The notes below the pieces were generated by a model that saw only the letters and a list, made by a program, of their open reading frames with translations, was not told the DNA's origin and searched no databases. Of a DNA stretch of 64,000 nucleotides, positions 1,032-57,859 are shown one piece after another. A program made the translations under genes and the position numbers. This stretch comes from an uncultured Pseudoalteromonas sp. (lineage in GTDB: Bacteria > Pseudomonadota > Gammaproteobacteria > Enterobacterales > Alteromonadaceae): contig NZ_CAWUKC010000010.1 of the NCBI RefSeq assembly GCF_963922945.1, positions 9,308 through 73,307 of the forward strand, written 5' to 3'. Position 1 is the stretch's first letter, and each line of letters begins with the position of its first letter.

Positions 1032-1340
1032 CTAGCTATAAAAATTGGGTGGCGGAACATCTGGCGGATAATTTAAACCGCTATAGCAAGCTGGCTGAGC
1101 TGCTTGGCTTTGCTCAGGGCTTATAGGGTGATTTAGCGAACTGTAATAACCACAGTGGCAATGCTGATGGGCATGAATTTCACTAGGTGATTGTGCGTCG
1201 TCGTCATTGGTATCGCTATGAGCGTGAATATGCGAGGCATGATCAACTTCTTCTTGTAAATGATACGCAGCAGCATCACAGCTAATAAAGCTGTGTACAA
1301 GCACCAAAAGTATCACGACTAAAAAGTAGTTTGAGCGCAT
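1032..1340 (-). CDS. Small secreted His-rich protein, putative periplasmic metal-binding accessory of the CzcC-like operon
   Basis: 102-aa ORF. It has a hydrophobic N-terminus (YFLVVILLVLVHSFISC) followed by an acidic HxH-rich stretch (HASHIHAHSDTNDDD...EIHAHQHCHCG). It lies on the same strand as the CzcC-like gene, 148 nt upstream. Confidence 0.55.
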   Translation of the reverse strand: MRSNYFLVVILLVLVHSFISCDAAAYHLQEEVDHASHIHAHSDTNDDDAQSPSEIHAHQHCHCGYYSSLNHPISPEQSQAAQPACYSGLNYPPDVPPPNFYS

Positions 1341-1456
1341 CCATTACCTAATTAAATTTGAAGTAGGTTCCTATTTTACAAAGTAGGAACAGCGGCATAT
1401 TAAACCCGCACGCGTCTTGAGGTCAATAAACAACGCGCAAAACCGTTGATAAAAGT

Positions 1457-1750
1457 TTACTGGCCTTCGTCTACACAACATTCATTTTGTAAAAAACCAA
1501 TTACATCGTCTAAGCGCTGGTACATAGCCACGCAATAAAGCGTGCGCCCTTCGCGCCTTTGACTAATTAGCCCAGCGTTAACTAAGCCCGATATATGGTG
1601 CGAAAGTGTAGAGCCCGCCATATTGAGCTCCTCTTGTATATTGCCAACACTAATTCCGGTGTGCCCTGCTTTAACTACACGCTTGTATATAGTTAAACGT
1701 GTTGGATGGCCTAATTCTTTGAGTGCCTTTGCAACGTCGATAATTTCCAT
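1457..1750 (-). CDS. ArsR/SmtB-family metalloregulatory transcriptional repressor
   Basis: 97 aa with a winged-HTH signature (LGHPTRLTIYKRV...ISVGNIQEELNMAGSTLSHHISGLVNAGLISQRREGRTLY) and a C-terminal Cys pair (NECCVDEG). A GAGG Shine-Dalgarno lies 7 nt upstream. The gene is divergent from the permease gene. Confidence 0.85.
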   Translation of the reverse strand: MEIIDVAKALKELGHPTRLTIYKRVVKAGHTGISVGNIQEELNMAGSTLSHHISGLVNAGLISQRREGRTLYCVAMYQRLDDVIGFLQNECCVDEGQ

Positions 1751-1762
1751 TACAACCTCGTA

Positions 1763-1782
1763 ATTTCTAAATTATTAGAAAT
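1763..1782. promoter_or_regulatory. 8-4-8 inverted repeat (ATTTCTAA-atta-TTAGAAAT) next to the arsR-like start
   Basis: Perfect palindrome 13-32 nt upstream of the ArsR-family ATG (1750, minus strand). It is a possible autoregulatory operator. Confidence 0.35.
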
Positions 1783-1899
1783 AATAACAATTTGAATCTT
1801 TAAATACAGCTTTATTAGCAAGTAACCTTAAAAGCTAAAAAATAAAATATTTAAAAACAAGGGTATAAAAATCACTTCCATATATCTAGAAATAAAGTA

Positions 1900-1928
1900 T
1901 TGACGATATTATTGCTCATCAATATACT
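1900..1928 (+). promoter_or_regulatory. Candidate sigma-70 promoter of the ArsP-like permease gene
   Basis: TTGACG (1900-1905), a 17-nt spacer, then TATACT (1923-1928). Confidence 0.5.
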
Positions 1929-1945
1929 TCCATAAAATTCGAAAT

Positions 1946-1968
1946 ATAACTTACTTAACGTAAGTTAT
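1946..1968. promoter_or_regulatory. 9-5-9 inverted repeat (ATAACTTAC-ttaac-GTAAGTTAT), candidate ArsR-family operator
   Basis: Perfect palindrome arms just downstream of the predicted -10 and 25 nt before the permease ATG. Confidence 0.45.
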
Positions 1969-1992
1969 ACCTTGTGTACTTTGGAGTGCGTT

Positions 1993-2961
1993 ATGAGTAA
2001 TGAAATGCTAGTTATGGCAAAAGAGGCGTTAGGCATGTTTGCCTTTTTAGCCACCGAGTTAACAATTTTATTTATTGTTATTAGTTACTTAGTAGGTATT
2101 TTGCAGTTGTTTATAACACCTGAGAAAATTCAATCTATTTTGAGTTCAAAAAATGGTAAAGGTTACGTTGTTGCTGCTTTAATGGGTGCTATAACACCAT
2201 TTTGTTCGTGCTCTACCATCCCGTTTTTAAAAGGGTTGTTAAGAGCAAAAGCAGGGTTTGGTCCTATGATGGTGTTTTTATTTGGCAGTCCATTGCTTAA
2301 CCCTGTGATCATTGGGCTATTTGTTATTACCTTCGGCTGGCAGGTTGCTTTATTTTACTTTTTAGTGGCTATGGTGGTGTCGGTTGTAGCAGGCTACACA
2401 CTTGAAAAACTTAGTTTTGAAAAGTACGTAAAGCCAGAAGCTTACAGTTTTTCCCCTTCAAGCAGCTGTGCAGAGCCAAGCTGTAGTGAACCTAAAAAAG
2501 CAGAGGTAAACTGTGCAACCGGTAGCTGTAGCGAGCCAAAAACTGCACAACCTAATCGTTGGGTAAAAGTGTGGCACGCAACATTTAAAGACTTTAAACA
2601 AGTGTTTCCGTACTTGATGTTGGGGGTCGCAATAGGCTCATTTATTTATGGCTTTATCCCTACCGAGCTGATTGCTAAATACGCGGGCAACGGTATGTGG
2701 TACGCCATACCTATTGCAGCCATTATTGGTATTCCACTTTATATTAGAGCCGAAGCTGTTATTCCGCTAAGTGCGGCATTAGTTAAAAAAGGCATGGCGC
2801 TTGGTTCGGTAATGGCATTAATTATTGGCAGTGCAGGCGCAAGCTTAACAGAAGTTATTTTACTAAAATCTATTTTCAAAAACCAAATGATAGCGGCCTT
2901 CTTGTTTGTCATTATTAGCATGGCAATTGGTGCAGGTTTTTTGTATCAAGCTATTTTTTAG
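1993..2961 (+). CDS. ArsP/YraQ-type permease (COG0701 family) with a Cys-rich loop
   Basis: Multi-TM protein carrying the ITPFCSCSTIPF motif, which matches the TPFCSCS signature of ArsP-type permeases. I prefer the ATG at 1993, preceded by GGAG, over the track start at 1972. The central loop reads SSSCAEPSCSEPKKAEVNCATGSCSEP. Confidence 0.75.
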   Translation: MSNEMLVMAKEALGMFAFLATELTILFIVISYLVGILQLFITPEKIQSILSSKNGKGYVVAALMGAITPFCSCSTIPFLKGLLRAKAGFGPMMVFLFGSPLLNPVIIGLFVITFGWQVALFYFLVAMVVSVVAGYTLEKLSFEKYVKPEAYSFSPSSSCAEPSCSEPKKAEVNCATGSCSEPKTAQPNRWVKVWHATFKDFKQVFPYLMLGVAIGSFIYGFIPTELIAKYAGNGMWYAIPIAAIIGIPLYIRAEAVIPLSAALVKKGMALGSVMALIIGSAGASLTEVILLKSIFKNQMIAAFLFVIISMAIGAGFLYQAIF

Positions 2962-55356: not shown

Positions 55357-55726
55357 ATAGTATTAACATATACCCCAGTTAAAATGCGGCTGGAGTATAC
55401 CAGTGAGCATTCACTTACTAAATAGTTTAAGTAATAAAAAAAGATTGGTTTTTAAAATAAACAACTAATACAAGCACTAAGCGCTAAAGGGTTGGTTTTT
55501 TATAAAGCGAATACAAAAAGCAGTGTGCATAATTTACAAAAATGAGTGCACAAAATTCACTGTCTTGCTTGCTAGGTTAATTTATAAACCCAAGCTACAA
55601 AAGCAAAAAACCTTTAAAATCATGCATTTTACCCACTTTAAATAGGTAGGCACACGCTTTGCTTTATGTATTTCAAGTTTATTCGTAGCAAAGGCTACGT
55701 GCAGCAAATTACATAATGGAGACAAT

Positions 55727-56242
55727 ATGAGTAACTCACAGCATCCAATTGAATTTACAGCCCCAGGAATGGACAATGAAACTGCAAAAAAAACGATTGC
55801 AACTCTTGATAACCGCTTAGTGGCATTGCTAGACATGCAATTGACGCTTAAGCATATTCATTGGAACGTAGTTGGTCCTAATTTTATTGGGGTACATGAA
55901 ATGTTAGACCCACAAGTAGACGCTATTCGCGAAATGACAGATACCATTGCAGAGCGAATTGCTACATTGGGTGGCACACCACAAGGCACACCTAAATCAA
56001 TTGTTGATCGCCGTAATTGGGAAGAATACTCATTAGGTAAGGCCTTTGTTATCGAACATTTAGGCGCTTTAGATAAAGTTTACAGTGGCGTAAATGCTGA
56101 CCATCGTAAAGCGATTGAAATTTTATCAGACTTAGATCCGGTATCTGAAGATATGATCACTAGCCAGCTTGGCGACTTAGAGCAATTTCAGTGGTTTGTA
56201 CGTGCACACATTGAATCGTCTGCAGGCAAATTAAATCACTAA
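55727..56242 (+). CDS. dps: Dps (DNA starvation/stationary-phase protection, ferritin-like) protein
   Basis: 171 aa. The sequence LKHIHWNVVGPNFIGVHEMLD...ERI..LGG is the Dps ferroxidase-site signature. Confidence 0.93.
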   Translation: MSNSQHPIEFTAPGMDNETAKKTIATLDNRLVALLDMQLTLKHIHWNVVGPNFIGVHEMLDPQVDAIREMTDTIAERIATLGGTPQGTPKSIVDRRNWEEYSLGKAFVIEHLGALDKVYSGVNADHRKAIEILSDLDPVSEDMITSQLGDLEQFQWFVRAHIESSAGKLNH

Positions 56243-56485
56243 TCAAATACCTATTTAGCACTACAAGGAAAGTTAGTAAATTTTAAAGGATTAAAAACTC
56301 TACAAGGACTCGTTACTAAGTAGGTTAAGGATGAAATGCATATTACAAGGATATGTTACTTATTACATAAAGGATGTAATAAATACGTCAAAAATGACTA
56401 AAGCTAACTAACGGATTTGGTAAATTTACAAGGATTGTTAAAATACAAACGCCTAGCATTCGCGTGCTAAGCGTTTGTGTTTTTT
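56243..56485 (+). ncRNA. Candidate CsrA/RsmA-sequestering RNA (independent Csr/Rsm-type sRNA or sponge-like dps 3'UTR)
   Basis: No ORF. There are eight A(A/C)GGA(T) motifs, with GGA at 56267, 56288, 56306, 56329, 56349, 56372, 56413 and 56432. Hairpins presenting GGA in or at the loop lie at 56281-56296, 56339-56355 and 56362-56380. The 3' end is defined by the terminator at 56445-56485. The 5' end is not determined. Confidence 0.55.
56445..56485 (+). terminator. Strong rho-independent terminator closing the GGA-rich RNA (may also serve the convergent phoX-like gene)
   Basis: ACAAACGCCTAGCA-ttcgcg-TGCTAAGCGTTTGT (14-bp stem, one mismatch) followed by GTTTTTT. Confidence 0.85.
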
Positions 56486-56491
56486 ACCACT

Positions 56492-57859
56492 TTAAAGCTT
56501 AAAACTCCCCCACGGACCCGTAATGGCTAACGTTTTGGTTGGCATGTACACATTAACAAACAAAGTTTGCCCATCTGGTGAAAAACATGCACCTGCAAGC
56601 TCGGTTTGCCCGTGTAGTTTAGCAAAGTTATACACCTCTCCTTTTGGCGTAACTCCCCGTAAATGGTTATCCACTGTCTCTGTGTATTGATCCTCACACA
56701 CAATTAAATGCCCGTTAGGCGCTACCGTTAAATTATCGCCAAAGTTGTATAACGACTCGTTTGTACTTTCTACAAATAGTTGTATTTTACCAGGCTCATT
56801 TTGCTCTAACTCAGTGCCTTCTTTTTTTGAAGGTGTGTACTTCATTACCTGACCTAACTGCTTTTTGCCCCCATTAGTACAGCAAAAATAAAGCTCATTT
56901 TTACCCCAATGAATCCCCTCACCGCGTGCAAATAACGCGGCCCCTTTTTTATAGCCTTGCTTACGTAAATCGTCATTAGGGCTTTTAGGATCTGTTATGG
57001 TGATCCATTCAACATCAAAGTTGCTGTGCAGTGGCATAGTGGGTGAATCCCAGTTTCGACTATCAAACTGAGGGTGAGCTTTAATCACCATAGCCTGTAA
57101 TGTGCCACCTTTGTTTAACTTTTCTCGATGATGAGGGATAAAGCGATAAAACAAACTATCGCCTCTATCCTCAGTTAAATAAACAATACCCGTTTTTGGG
57201 TCTATTGCTGCGGCTTCATGGTTAAAACGGCCCATATCGTATAATGGCTCTGGCTTAATAAGCCCTTTCGCACTAGCGGGCACTTCAAAAATGTAACCAT
57301 GTGATTCTGACAAGCCATCGTTTTTATCCATCACCGTTTCTTCGCAGGTCAGCCAGCTTCCCCAAGGTGTTACACCGCCTGAGCAATTTCTAATTGTGCC
57401 ACACAGCGATAAATACTCTTGCTCACGTTTTTGCGTTTTTAAATTATAAATAATATGACTCGTGCCCCCAGGCAAAGCTACGCCATTCTCTAAAGAATCA
57501 TAAGCTAAAGAGGTTTTATGATTACTAATTAAATCAGACGCGCTCTCAATATGTTGAGGATGTAATTCATGATTACGTATAAGCGCTACACGTTCGCTGT
57601 CTAATTCAATACAGCCCATACCATCGGCTCTGTCGGGTACATCAAGGCCATCATCCATTTTATCGCCAAGTTTAGATATAACCTGATATGTAAACCCCTC
57701 GGGTAAATCAAGTAACGCGTTAGTATCGGTGATTAGTGGGCCATAAGCTGGCAACTTAGTCGTTACCTCAGGCAAAGCCACGTTACCCATTGCGCTGCGC
57801 GATAAGCCAATAAAGGCAAGCGAGCCCGCACTAAATAAAAAATCTCTTCTAGAAACCAT
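56492..57859 (-). CDS. Tat-exported PhoX-family / DUF839 beta-propeller protein (putative alkaline phosphatase)
   Basis: The twin-arginine signal is MVSRRDFLFSAGSLAFIG. The beta-propeller-like repeats and blocks such as CSGGVTPWGSWLTCEE and GRFNHEAAA are typical of DUF839/PhoX. Confidence 0.7.
   Translation of the reverse strand: MVSRRDFLFSAGSLAFIGLSRSAMGNVALPEVTTKLPAYGPLITDTNALLDLPEGFTYQVISKLGDKMDDGLDVPDRADGMGCIELDSERVALIRNHELHPQHIESASDLISNHKTSLAYDSLENGVALPGGTSHIIYNLKTQKREQEYLSLCGTIRNCSGGVTPWGSWLTCEETVMDKNDGLSESHGYIFEVPASAKGLIKPEPLYDMGRFNHEAAAIDPKTGIVYLTEDRGDSLFYRFIPHHREKLNKGGTLQAMVIKAHPQFDSRNWDSPTMPLHSNFDVEWITITDPKSPNDDLRKQGYKKGAALFARGEGIHWGKNELYFCCTNGGKKQLGQVMKYTPSKKEGTELEQNEPGKIQLFVESTNESLYNFGDNLTVAPNGHLIVCEDQYTETVDNHLRGVTPKGEVYNFAKLHGQTELAGACFSPDGQTLFVNVYMPTKTLAITGPWGSFKL

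What the first reader, a model, noticed from the sequence alone, without database searches (positions are those of the whole stretch)
56243..56485. GGA-motif array with loop-presented GGAs between dps and a strong terminator: candidate CsrA/RsmA sponge RNA
Seen in sequence:
- The 243 nt after the dps stop contain no credible ORF.
- They carry eight copies of A(A/C)GGA, six of them as AAGGAT. The contexts are ctACAAGGAaa, ttAAAGGATt, ctACAAGGAct, gtTAAGGATg, ttACAAGGATatgt, atAAAGGATgt, taACGGATt and ttACAAGGATtgt.
- The first six are spaced about 18-23 nt apart. A 41-nt gap follows, and the last two are 19 nt apart.
- At least three sit in or at the loop of short hairpins: TTTTA-aaggat-TAAAA (56281-96), CATAT-tacaagg-ATATG (56339-55) and ATTACAT-aaagg-ATGTAAT (56362-80).
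- The unit ends in a 14-bp-stem, U-tract terminator (56445-85).
- There is no terminator between dps and this region.

Established knowledge: CsrA/RsmA/RsmE bind A(N)GGA, preferably in hairpin loops (SELEX consensus RUACARGGAUGU). CsrB/CsrC/RsmX/Y/Z sRNAs are arrays of such sites.

Inference: this is either an unannotated Csr/Rsm-type sRNA or a dps 3'UTR that doubles as a CsrA sponge. I could not find the usual GacA/UvrY upstream box (TGTAAG-N6-CTTACA) or a convincing promoter. That would make its regulatory wiring atypical, possibly transcribed with or processed from a stationary-phase dps mRNA.
Basis: partly seen in the sequence, partly recalled or inferred. Interest (0 to 1): 0.75.

Follow-up and report, generated by a model that had tools for sequence, protein, structure and literature searches.

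The report
CsrA-sponge RNA array behind dps
The roughly 240 bases after the dps stress-protection gene carry eight conserved, evenly spaced binding motifs for the global regulator CsrA and end in a strong terminator, so they most likely act as a decoy RNA made as the tail of the dps message; this is a new, lineage-restricted example of a known kind of regulator.

Summary
Eight A(A/C)GGA motifs lie on the + strand at 56265-56434, where about 0.08 are expected (P about 6e-14). All four TACAAGGA octamers in the window are in this stretch. A -22 kcal/mol hairpin with a U-tract follows. No terminator, credible ORF, sigma-70 promoter or GacA box lies between the motifs and the dps stop.

Comparative data add three points:
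- **Distribution.** The array occurs only in a narrow Pseudoalteromonas clade (the window species, P. atlantica, P. sp. P1-25 and two metagenome contigs), always as dps-array-terminator-phoX. Other Pseudoalteromonas species end dps with its own terminator 20-40 nt after the stop.
- **Selection.** All 24 GGA bases are identical between lineages. Spacers are 77% identical, and about half of fourfold-degenerate sites differ.
- **Turnover.** Relatives carry 9 or 11 sites through one point difference and one 39-nt tandem duplication.

It is not Pf1, Pf2 or Pf3, the verified Csr sRNAs of the genus, and it matches no Rfam family.

Best reading: a CsrA-titrating RNA transcribed with dps, perhaps cut out of its 3'UTR. 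P. aeruginosa RsmW works this way. I classify it as a new member of a known kind. Nothing here is tested experimentally.

The parts
55650..55726 (+). Conserved dps promoter and 5'UTR block, the presumed source of transcription for the array
   Evidence: Nearly invariant among the window, L001, L002 and L093, while the rest of the upstream intergenic region is diverged. The promoter assignment is inferred.
55727..56242 (+). dps coding sequence (171 aa)
   Evidence: ORF. Matches NCBIfam NF006975 Dps equivalog at 124 bits against a cut-off of 114 and Pfam Ferritin.
56243..56261 (+). Linker between the dps stop codon and the first CsrA-type site, with no hairpin or T-run
   Evidence: Sequence and terminator scan. 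Species without the array have a hairpin and T-run terminator at this position.
56262..56437 (+). Array of eight A(A/C)GGA sites, with GGA at 56267, 56288, 56306, 56329, 56349, 56372, 56413 and 56432; four are TACAAGGA
   Evidence: GGA is 24/24 identical to P. atlantica against 77% for spacers. Mean unpaired probability of GGA is 0.62 against 0.41 for all positions.
56338..56356 (+). Hairpin GCAUAUU-ACAAG-GAUAUGU presenting site 5
   Evidence: -4.3 kcal/mol, z = -3.0. Not kept in L001.
56360..56382 (+). Hairpin UUAUUACAU-AAAGG-AUGUAAUAA presenting site 6
   Evidence: -6.2 kcal/mol, z = -4.6. Kept in L001 through a G-U change.
56390..56394 (+). Degenerate ninth site: AAAAA here, AAGGA in P. atlantica, P1-25 and L093. 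This explains the 41-nt gap.
   Evidence: Alignment A2 and spacing table.
56445..56485 (+). Intrinsic terminator: 8 + 6 bp stem with one mismatch, a 4-nt loop, then G and six U. Probably bidirectional and also serving phoX.
   Evidence: -22.4 kcal/mol, z = -7.0 on the + strand and -21 kcal/mol on the - strand. 39/41 identical to L001.
56492..57859 (-). Convergent PhoX-family gene (context only; its 3' end shares the terminator)
   Evidence: ORF and Pfam PF05787 PhoX.

Best explanation
The roughly 240 nt after dps (56243-56485) are transcribed as the 3' part of the dps mRNA, starting from the dps promoter and ending at the only terminator. They work as a CsrA-titrating sponge RNA.

The RNA carries eight high-affinity-type CsrA sites (consensus UACAAGGAU) about 20 nt apart, with nine to eleven in relatives. 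This spacing suits bridging by CsrA dimers. The RNA would act either as the full dps-array transcript or, more likely, as a stable sRNA of about 200-240 nt cut from the 3'UTR by RNase E and protected by the terminator hairpin. P. aeruginosa RsmW is made this way.

Conditions that induce dps would then lower free CsrA independently of GacA. In other bacteria those conditions are stationary phase, oxidative stress and iron stress.

**Shown here:** motif array, spacing, terminator, absence of an intervening terminator, purifying selection centred on GGA, clade restriction, and unit turnover.

**Inferred:** transcription with dps, processing, CsrA binding, and the physiological coupling.
For: - **Motif density.** Eight A(A/C)GGA lie in 170 nt where about 0.08 are expected. 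All four TACAAGGA octamers in the window are here.
- **Motif quality and spacing.** The motif profile is U-A/U-C/A-A-A-GGA-U, with spacing of 18-24 nt (51).
- **Conservation.** Against P. atlantica, GGA is 24/24 identical and ANGGA 39/40, while spacers are 127/165 (Fisher P = 0.003 and 0.001). Spacers are themselves more conserved than fourfold sites, where 113/241 differ (P = 6e-7).
- **Transcript layout.** The terminator is strong. No terminator and no sigma-70-like promoter lies between dps and the array in the window, L001 or L002.
- **Relatives without the array.** In eight of the nine other Pseudoalteromonas loci read (L003, L005-7, L010, L017, L018, L031), dps is followed within 20-40 nt by its own hairpin and T-run.
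- **Accessibility.** GGAs are more accessible than average, 0.62 against 0.41 (36).
- **Turnover.** Site number changes by a 39-nt tandem duplication (L091) and by one GGA/AAA difference. Sponge arrays are expected to evolve this way.
- **Precedents.** RsmW has 7 GGA, no terminator after pa4570, is RNase E-processed and is not GacA-activated (PMC4950607, PMC13622538). FimR2 is another 3'UTR-derived CsrA antagonist (PMC9723502).
- **Genus context.** Pseudoalteromonas has CsrA and verified Csr sRNAs with 9-25 GGA (PMC11882849).
Against: - There is no transcript, binding or genetic data for this locus.
- Only two well-separated lineages carry the element, so covariation cannot support a defined fold. 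RNAalifold found 2 compensatory pairs out of 58, with a covariation term of -0.72.
- Only 3 of 8 GGAs sit in hairpin loops of the MFE structure, and only one hairpin is conserved.
- No Rfam Csr/Rsm family matches, even at E <= 10.
- Failing to find a promoter by consensus scan does not prove there is none. Reduced third-position divergence in the last 20 dps codons (4/20 against 41%, P = 0.045) could mark an internal promoter.
- csrA is not in the window, so its presence in this genome is assumed from the genus.
Confidence: 0.55

Rival explanations
1. The same CsrA sponge, but made as an independent primary transcript. Its own promoter would be embedded in the last 100 nt or so of the dps coding sequence or at the stop codon. 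This would be a type-I 3'UTR sRNA or a stand-alone sRNA gene inserted between dps and the terminator, using a non-canonical or activator-dependent promoter.
For: - Pf1-3, CsrB/C and RsmX/Y/Z all have their own promoters.
- The last 20 codons of dps have fewer synonymous changes than the gene average (4/20 against 70/172, P = 0.045).
- Weak candidates exist: TATGAT at 56152 with a poor -35, and TTGAAT-17-AATCAT in L001 and L002.
Against: - No site reaches 9/12 matches to the sigma-70 consensus between 55858 and 56417 in the window, and none does in the equivalent stretch of L001 or L002.
- The L001/L002 candidate loses its invariant T in the window, where it reads AATCAC.
- No GacA/UvrY box with 3 or fewer mismatches lies within 800 nt upstream. 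The 3-mismatch site at 55402 is not conserved.
- With no terminator after dps, dps read-through transcripts must carry the array anyway.
Confidence: 0.25
2. A cis-acting 3'UTR. CsrA binding to the array mainly controls the stability, translation or termination of the dps mRNA itself, so dps would be a CsrA target and the array would not meaningfully titrate the cellular CsrA pool.
For: - The array is physically part of the dps transcription unit and no terminator intervenes.
- CsrA binding to UTRs that alters mRNA fate is established knowledge. RsmA also affects pa4570-rsmW transcript levels (PMC4950607).
Against: - Eight to eleven sites at sponge-like spacing is far more than known cis targets use, which is typically 2-6 sites at the 5' leader or Shine-Dalgarno sequence.
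- In P. fuliginea, only the dedicated sponges have more than 4 GGA among 111 CsrA-associated sRNAs.
- Site number is expanding by duplication.
- dps in sister species does without any such UTR.
Confidence: 0.12
3. Not a CsrA element. The array would be a degenerate AT-rich repeat, a site for another RNA-binding protein or the ribosome (AAGGA resembles a Shine-Dalgarno sequence), or a remnant of the rearrangement that placed phoX after dps.
For: - The element is young and clade-restricted, and it coincides with a local rearrangement.
- It has no Rfam match, a weakly conserved structure and a very AT-rich composition, 28% GC against 41% for the window.
Against: - Selection acts specifically on GGA (24/24) and on the region as a whole relative to synonymous sites.
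- Half of all G residues in the stretch are in GGA.
- The motif matches the CsrA SELEX core beyond GGA.
- Tandem Repeats Finder finds no simple repeat (35).
- There are no similar sequences in plasmids or elsewhere in the held loci.
- No small ORF follows the Shine-Dalgarno-like motifs at a proper distance.
Confidence: 0.08

Closest known systems
RsmW of Pseudomonas aeruginosa (3'UTR of pa4570)
   Same: - A multi-GGA sponge (7 GGA) lying directly after a protein-coding gene, with no terminator in between.
- Not activated by GacA and lacking a proximal GacA box.
- Released from the mRNA by RNase E and more stable than the mRNA.
- Induced by stationary phase and low iron (PMC4950607, PMC13622538).

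The layout proposed here is the same, and the host gene here is also linked to iron and stress.
   Different: - No sequence relationship, and a different host gene (dps against a small hypothetical protein) in a different order of bacteria.
- The sites here are more regular (about 20-nt period) and closer to the UACAAGGAU consensus.
- Nothing about this locus has been shown experimentally.
Pf1, Pf2 and Pf3 of Pseudoalteromonas fuliginea (equivalent to csrB1, csrB2 and csrC predicted in P. haloplanktis)
   Same: - Same genus and the same presumed partner, CsrA.
- GGA arrays ending in a rho-independent terminator.
- Pf3 has 9 GGA, like the P. atlantica version of this element.
- Pf1-3 bind CsrA and complement in the E. 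coli glycogen assay (PMC9927453, PMC11882849, PMC1488887).
   Different: - **Locus.** Pf3 lies between cytochrome c4 and a YihI-type gene, which is the csrC position.
- **No detected homology.** In strain P1-25 the Pf3 match is on contig LKDW01000009, and no Pf1/2/3 match falls on the dps contig LKDW01000024.
- **Absent in P. fuliginea.** Its dps has its own terminator (L005).
- **Promoters.** Pf1-3 have verified own promoters and a conserved upstream box. This element has neither recognisable feature.
- **Distribution.** Pf3 is in about 70% of the genus. This element is in one small clade.
CsrB/CsrC (Enterobacteria, Vibrio) and RsmX/Y/Z (Pseudomonas)
   Same: The principle is the same: many A(N)GGA sites in loops and single-stranded stretches, a terminal intrinsic terminator, and sequestration of CsrA/RsmA dimers.
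   Different: - No match to any Rfam model of these families, even at E <= 10.
- No UvrY/GacA upstream site.
- Not a free-standing gene.
- Shorter than CsrB (about 200 nt with 8 sites against about 370 nt with about 18-22, from memory).
FimR2 (E. coli and Salmonella)
   Same: A 3'UTR-derived, RNase E-generated, stationary-phase RNA that antagonises CsrA (PMC9723502).
   Different: FimR2 is a short fragment with few sites that also base-pairs with mRNAs. It is not a periodic multi-site array.

Membership tests
CsrA/RsmA-sequestering sRNA (five sequence criteria of Kulkarni et al. 2006, PMC1488887) | (i) Located in an intergenic region | tested here: met
   Lies between the dps stop (56242) and the phoX stop (56492), with no credible ORF.
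CsrA/RsmA-sequestering sRNA (five sequence criteria of Kulkarni et al. 2006, PMC1488887) | (ii) High concentration of AGGA/ARGGA motifs | tested here: met
   Seven AAGGA and one ACGGA in 170 nt where about 0.08 are expected. It is the top GGA-dense 200-nt window on either strand.
CsrA/RsmA-sequestering sRNA (five sequence criteria of Kulkarni et al. 2006, PMC1488887) | (iii) Rho-independent terminator at the 3' end | tested here: met
   Hairpin 56445-56478 plus six U, -22.4 kcal/mol, z = -7. Conserved in relatives.
CsrA/RsmA-sequestering sRNA (five sequence criteria of Kulkarni et al. 2006, PMC1488887) | (iv) GGA repeatedly in loops and unpaired regions of the predicted structure | tested here: inconclusive
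   Mean unpaired probability of GGA is 0.62 against 0.41 overall. Three of eight are in MFE hairpin loops. Two local hairpins are significant and only one is conserved. There are too few lineages for covariation.
CsrA/RsmA-sequestering sRNA (five sequence criteria of Kulkarni et al. 2006, PMC1488887) | (v) Conserved upstream activator site (csrB, csrC or rsmY type; TGTAAG-N6-CTTACA) | tested here: not met
   No match with 3 or fewer mismatches between 55420 and 58369. The 3-mismatch site at 55402 is not conserved in L001, L002 or L093.
CsrA/RsmA-sequestering sRNA (functional definition) | Binds several CsrA dimers and relieves CsrA-mediated repression | not testable with these tools
   Needs EMSA, RIP or a genetic assay.
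CsrA/RsmA-sequestering sRNA (functional definition) | csrA present in the same genome | not tested
   csrA is not in the 64-kb window. The genus has csrA (D172_RS15050 in P. fuliginea, PMC11882849).
Rfam CsrB, CsrC, RsmX, RsmY, PrrB_RsmZ and other curated Csr/Rsm families | Covariance-model match at or near the gathering score | tested here: not met
   No hit at gathering thresholds anywhere in the window. At E <= 10 on 55400-56700 there were only spurious miRNA and OrzO-P hits on the terminator hairpin.
Pf1/Pf2/Pf3 of Pseudoalteromonas | Sequence homology (the authors' BLAST criterion, e < 1e-5) and a conserved locus | tested here: not met
   This test is indirect because the Pf sequences could not be fetched. 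In P1-25 the Pf3 hit is on LKDW01000009 and there is no hit on the dps contig LKDW01000024. Pf3 lies at the cytochrome c4 / yihI-type locus. P. fuliginea dps has no array.
3'UTR-derived Csr/Rsm sponge (RsmW type) | No terminator between the upstream ORF and the GGA-rich RNA, with a single terminator after it | tested here: met
   Eight of the nine other Pseudoalteromonas loci read terminate dps right after the stop codon.
3'UTR-derived Csr/Rsm sponge (RsmW type) | No own promoter; the short RNA arises by RNase E cleavage of the mRNA | tested here: inconclusive
   No conserved sigma-70-like promoter was found by consensus scans. An unusual internal promoter cannot be excluded, and processing is not testable here.

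The most novel reading that the evidence does not exclude
[quoted passage not shown] Stationary-phase, oxidative or iron stress signals that switch on dps would then directly lower CsrA activity. The array is still changing in site number (8, 9 or 11) through point changes and a 39-nt unit duplication. It would be a natural snapshot of how a sponge RNA is born and grows at the end of a highly expressed gene.
Probability: 0.45. Interest if true: 0.6.

Novelty: new member of a known kind. Interest (0 to 1): 0.45.

Why it matters
If confirmed, this adds a lineage-specific input to the Csr network of a widely studied marine genus. CsrA activity would be tied to dps expression rather than to the GacS/GacA pathway that drives the canonical sponges.

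With RsmW, it would be a second, independent case of a multi-site Csr/Rsm sponge carried on an mRNA 3'UTR linked to iron or stress. That would suggest a recurring evolutionary solution.

The element is absent from close relatives and varies in site number among strains, so it could serve as a model for how protein-sponge RNAs originate and expand.

Practically, neither homology searches with known Csr sRNAs nor Rfam detect this element. Motif-density scans of 3'UTRs are needed to complete Csr regulons.

Tried and rejected
- **Rfam.** Searched at gathering thresholds on the whole window and at E <= 10 on 1.3 kb. There was no Csr/Rsm family, only chance miRNA and OrzO-P hits on the terminator hairpin.
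- **GacA/UvrY box.** Nothing conserved was found. The site at 55402 (AGTGAGCATTCACTTACT, 3 mismatches) resembles the Pf1 box core but is not conserved and is no better than chance.
- **Small-peptide reading.** The 26-aa ORF at 56331-56411 is kept in frame in relatives. It was rejected because differences fall 7/4/4 by codon position, 8 of 26 residues differ, and it has no spaced Shine-Dalgarno sequence.
- **Simple tandem repeat.** Tandem Repeats Finder found nothing.
- **Mobile or plasmid origin.** No blastn match in PLSDB.
- **Other copies.** An nhmmer profile of the element found nothing else in the window or in the 93 held loci.
- **Consensus structure and covariation.** Only two diverged lineages are available, so the result is uninformative.
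- **Minus-strand function.** Rejected as the primary reading. The minus strand has no terminator downstream of the array (it runs into dps), and the motif is strand-specific.
- **Sigma-54 or other promoter motifs in the dps 3' end.** Read by eye, none fits.
- **Fetching Pf1-3 for direct alignment.** Not possible. I relied on the authors' BLAST table instead.
- **Metagenome pattern scan.** One of the four hits (L090) is a chance match inside unrelated sequence.

Full report

Yes. The + strand after the dps stop codon (56240-56242) carries eight A(A/C)GGA motifs at 56265-56434. The other 63 occurrences in the window are spread over 128 kb of both strands. About 0.08 are therefore expected in 170 nt, giving Poisson P about 6e-14, or about 4e-11 after allowing for all windows.

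The stretch is the most GGA-dense 200-nt window on either strand. Half of its G residues are inside GGA, and it is very AT-rich at 28% G+C against 41% for the window. All four TACAAGGA octamers in the window lie here.

Successive GGAs are 21, 18, 23, 20, 23, 41 and 19 nt apart. The motif profile is U-(A/U)-(C/A)-A-A-GGA-U. This is the core of the CsrA SELEX consensus RUACARGGAUGU, which I cite from memory.

A hairpin at 56445-56478 followed by G and six U folds at -22.4 kcal/mol with z = -7. It folds nearly as well on the other strand, so it probably also terminates the convergent phoX-family gene, which ends at 56492.

The upstream ORF is a genuine Dps, matching the NCBIfam equivalog above its cut-off.

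- AAGGAT occurs five times, not six.
- The hairpin proposed at 56281-96 has no stability on its own.
- The other two hairpins are significant (-4.3 and -6.2 kcal/mol), but part of each GGA is paired, and only the one at 56360-56382 is kept in P. atlantica.

**2. What surrounds it, and where else does it occur?**

A scan of one genome per species with the Dps protein returned 80 loci. Only the two closest carry a GGA-dense stretch after dps. These are P. atlantica NBRC 103033 (L001) and Pseudoalteromonas sp. P1-25 (L002), with 94-95% Dps identity.

A metagenome scan with a conserved 22-mer added two further variants (L091, L093) and copies identical to the window. One hit, L090, is a chance match. 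An exact-protein look-up gave near-identical contigs.

In every case the order is DUF2189 gene, a 259-aa gene, dps, array, terminator, phoX (convergent) and a PA0049_N-domain gene.

Of the nine other Pseudoalteromonas loci read, eight (L003, L005-7, L010, L017, L018, L031, including P. fuliginea KMM 216) follow the dps stop within 20-40 nt with their own hairpin and T-run, and none of the nine has an array. In three of them, phoX lies upstream of dps and divergent from it.

The element is therefore young and clade-restricted, and it coincides with a local rearrangement. In the clade that has it, dps has no terminator of its own.

**3. Is it under selection?**

Yes. The figures below compare the window with P. 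atlantica.

| Class of sites | Identical | Source |
|---|---|---|
| GGA bases | 24 of 24 | |
| A(N)GGA positions | 39 of 40 | |
| Spacer positions | 127 of 165 (77%) | |
| Terminator positions | 39 of 41 | |
| Fourfold-degenerate sites, dps | 31 of 67 | |
| Fourfold-degenerate sites, phoX | 97 of 174 | |

- GGA is more conserved than the spacers (Fisher P = 0.003, or 0.001 for the 5-mers).
- The spacers are more conserved than synonymous sites (P = 6e-7).

Site number also varies. The window's 41-nt gap holds AAAAA where the atlantica group has AAGGA. Those relatives therefore have nine sites at 18-24 nt throughout. L091 has a 39-nt tandem duplication that adds two more sites.

A 26-aa ORF that stays open in relatives is not coding. 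Its differences fall 7/4/4 by codon position, and the AAGG abuts the ATG.

**4. Structure**

The whole stretch folds better than shuffled sequence (z = -3.9), but so does its complement. GGAs are more often unpaired than average, 0.62 against 0.41. Three of eight sit in MFE hairpin loops.

With only two diverged lineages, the consensus fold is uninformative: 2 compensatory pairs out of 58. The structural criterion is only partly met.

**5. How is it transcribed?**

No sigma-70-like site with at least 9 of 12 matches lies on the + strand between 55858 and 56417 in the window, nor in the equivalent stretch of L001 and L002. A laxer scan finds only weak or non-conserved candidates.

No TGTAAG-N6-CTTACA box with 3 or fewer mismatches lies within 800 nt upstream. 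The 3-mismatch site at 55402 is not conserved.

The dps promoter and 5'UTR block at 55650-55726 is conserved.

There is no terminator after dps, so dps transcripts must run through the array to 56485. That is the main argument for a 3'UTR origin.

One weak counter-hint is that the last 20 dps codons show fewer third-position changes than the gene average (4/20 against 41%, P = 0.045). An embedded promoter or a processing element would both explain this.

**6. Comparison with what is known**

Rfam 15 has no match, either at gathering thresholds for the window or at E <= 10 for the locus.

Pseudoalteromonas fuliginea has three verified Csr sRNAs: Pf1 (PMC9927453), and Pf2 and Pf3 (PMC11882849). 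They carry 25, 21 and 9 GGA and are the only CsrA-associated sRNAs in that strain with more than four GGA. They correspond to the csrB1, csrB2 and csrC predicted for P. haloplanktis in 2006 (PMC1488887).

Pf3 lies between cytochrome c4 and a YihI-type gene, which is the csrC position.

The present element is a different locus:
- P. fuliginea has no array after dps.
- In strain P1-25 the authors' Pf3 match is on contig LKDW01000009.
- None of their Pf1/2/3 matches falls on the dps contig LKDW01000024.

I could not fetch the Pf sequences themselves, so distant paralogy is not excluded.

Of the five sequence criteria that Kulkarni et al. give for CsrA-regulating sRNAs, this element meets intergenic location, motif density and terminator. 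It partly meets loop presentation. It fails the conserved upstream site.

The closest functional analogue is RsmW of P. aeruginosa:
- seven GGA;
- no terminator after pa4570;
- not GacA-activated;
- cut from the 3'UTR by RNase E;
- more stable than the mRNA;
- induced in stationary phase and by low iron (PMC4950607, PMC13622538).

FimR2 is another 3'UTR-derived CsrA antagonist (PMC9723502).

**7. Verdict**

| Reading | Probability |
|---|---|
| CsrA sponge carried on, and probably processed from, the dps 3'UTR | about 0.55 |
| Same sponge made from its own cryptic promoter | about 0.25 |
| Mainly cis-acting control of dps mRNA | about 0.12 |
| Not a CsrA element | about 0.08 |

Csr sponges in this genus and 3'UTR-derived Rsm sponges are both published, so I rate it a new member of a known kind. 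What is new is the dps linkage, the apparent independence from GacA, and the visibly recent birth and growth of the array. All functional steps (transcription, processing, CsrA binding, phenotype) remain to be shown.

Noticed in passing
L091 8137-8214 (JGI24025J20009_10001990): A 39-nt unit holding two GGA sites (ATACAAGGAATGTTAATAAGAGTTAAAGGACTAATAAAG) is tandemly duplicated relative to L001 and L093, giving 11 sites. This is direct evidence that the array grows by unit duplication.
   Followed up: partly
window 56417-56444 (also L001 and L002 3692-3719): A conserved promoter-like site, TTGGTA-16-(TG)TTAAAAT, sits immediately 5' of the terminator hairpin, inside the most conserved part of the element. 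A start there would give only a transcript of about 35 nt. It is probably a coincidence of the conserved last two GGA sites and the A-tract.
   Followed up: no
window 55521-55558 and 55650-55726: Two blocks upstream of dps are nearly invariant among the window, P. atlantica, P1-25 and L093, while the rest of the intergenic region has diverged. The first contains a TGCAC-N15-GTGCA dyad and the second a GTAGCAAwGGCTAC dyad. They are likely the dps operator and promoter. Whichever regulator binds here would also control the array.
   Followed up: no
window 56183-56242 (last 20 codons of dps): Third-position divergence is lower than the gene average (4/20 against 70/172 compared with L001, P = 0.045). 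This is a weak hint of an overlapping constraint, such as an internal promoter, a processing site or RNA structure.
   Followed up: partly
L010, L018, L041 (phoX at about 1300-2700, minus strand) compared with window 56492-57859: The phoX-family gene is upstream of dps and divergent from it in P. shioyasakiensis and two other species. It is downstream and convergent in the clade that has the array. L003 (P. sp. FUC4) keeps the upstream synteny but has neither phoX nor the array after dps. The array's appearance coincides with this rearrangement.
   Followed up: partly
Literature: P. fuliginea D172_RS16040/RS16045 (Supplementary Data 3 of PMC11882849): Pf3 lies next to a K09894 (YihI-type) gene. 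This is the conserved csrC neighbourhood noted by Kulkarni et al. in 2006. Pf1-3 therefore look like the csrB1, csrB2 and csrC predicted for P. haloplanktis, a link the 2025 section I read does not spell out.
   Followed up: partly
window 55402-55419: AGTGAGCATTCACTTACT shares the GTGAG-N6-CTTAC core with the putative GacA box reported for Pf1 (CGTGAGACATCTCTTACA). It lies 325 nt upstream of the dps start codon, is not conserved in relatives, and is within chance expectation.
   Followed up: yes
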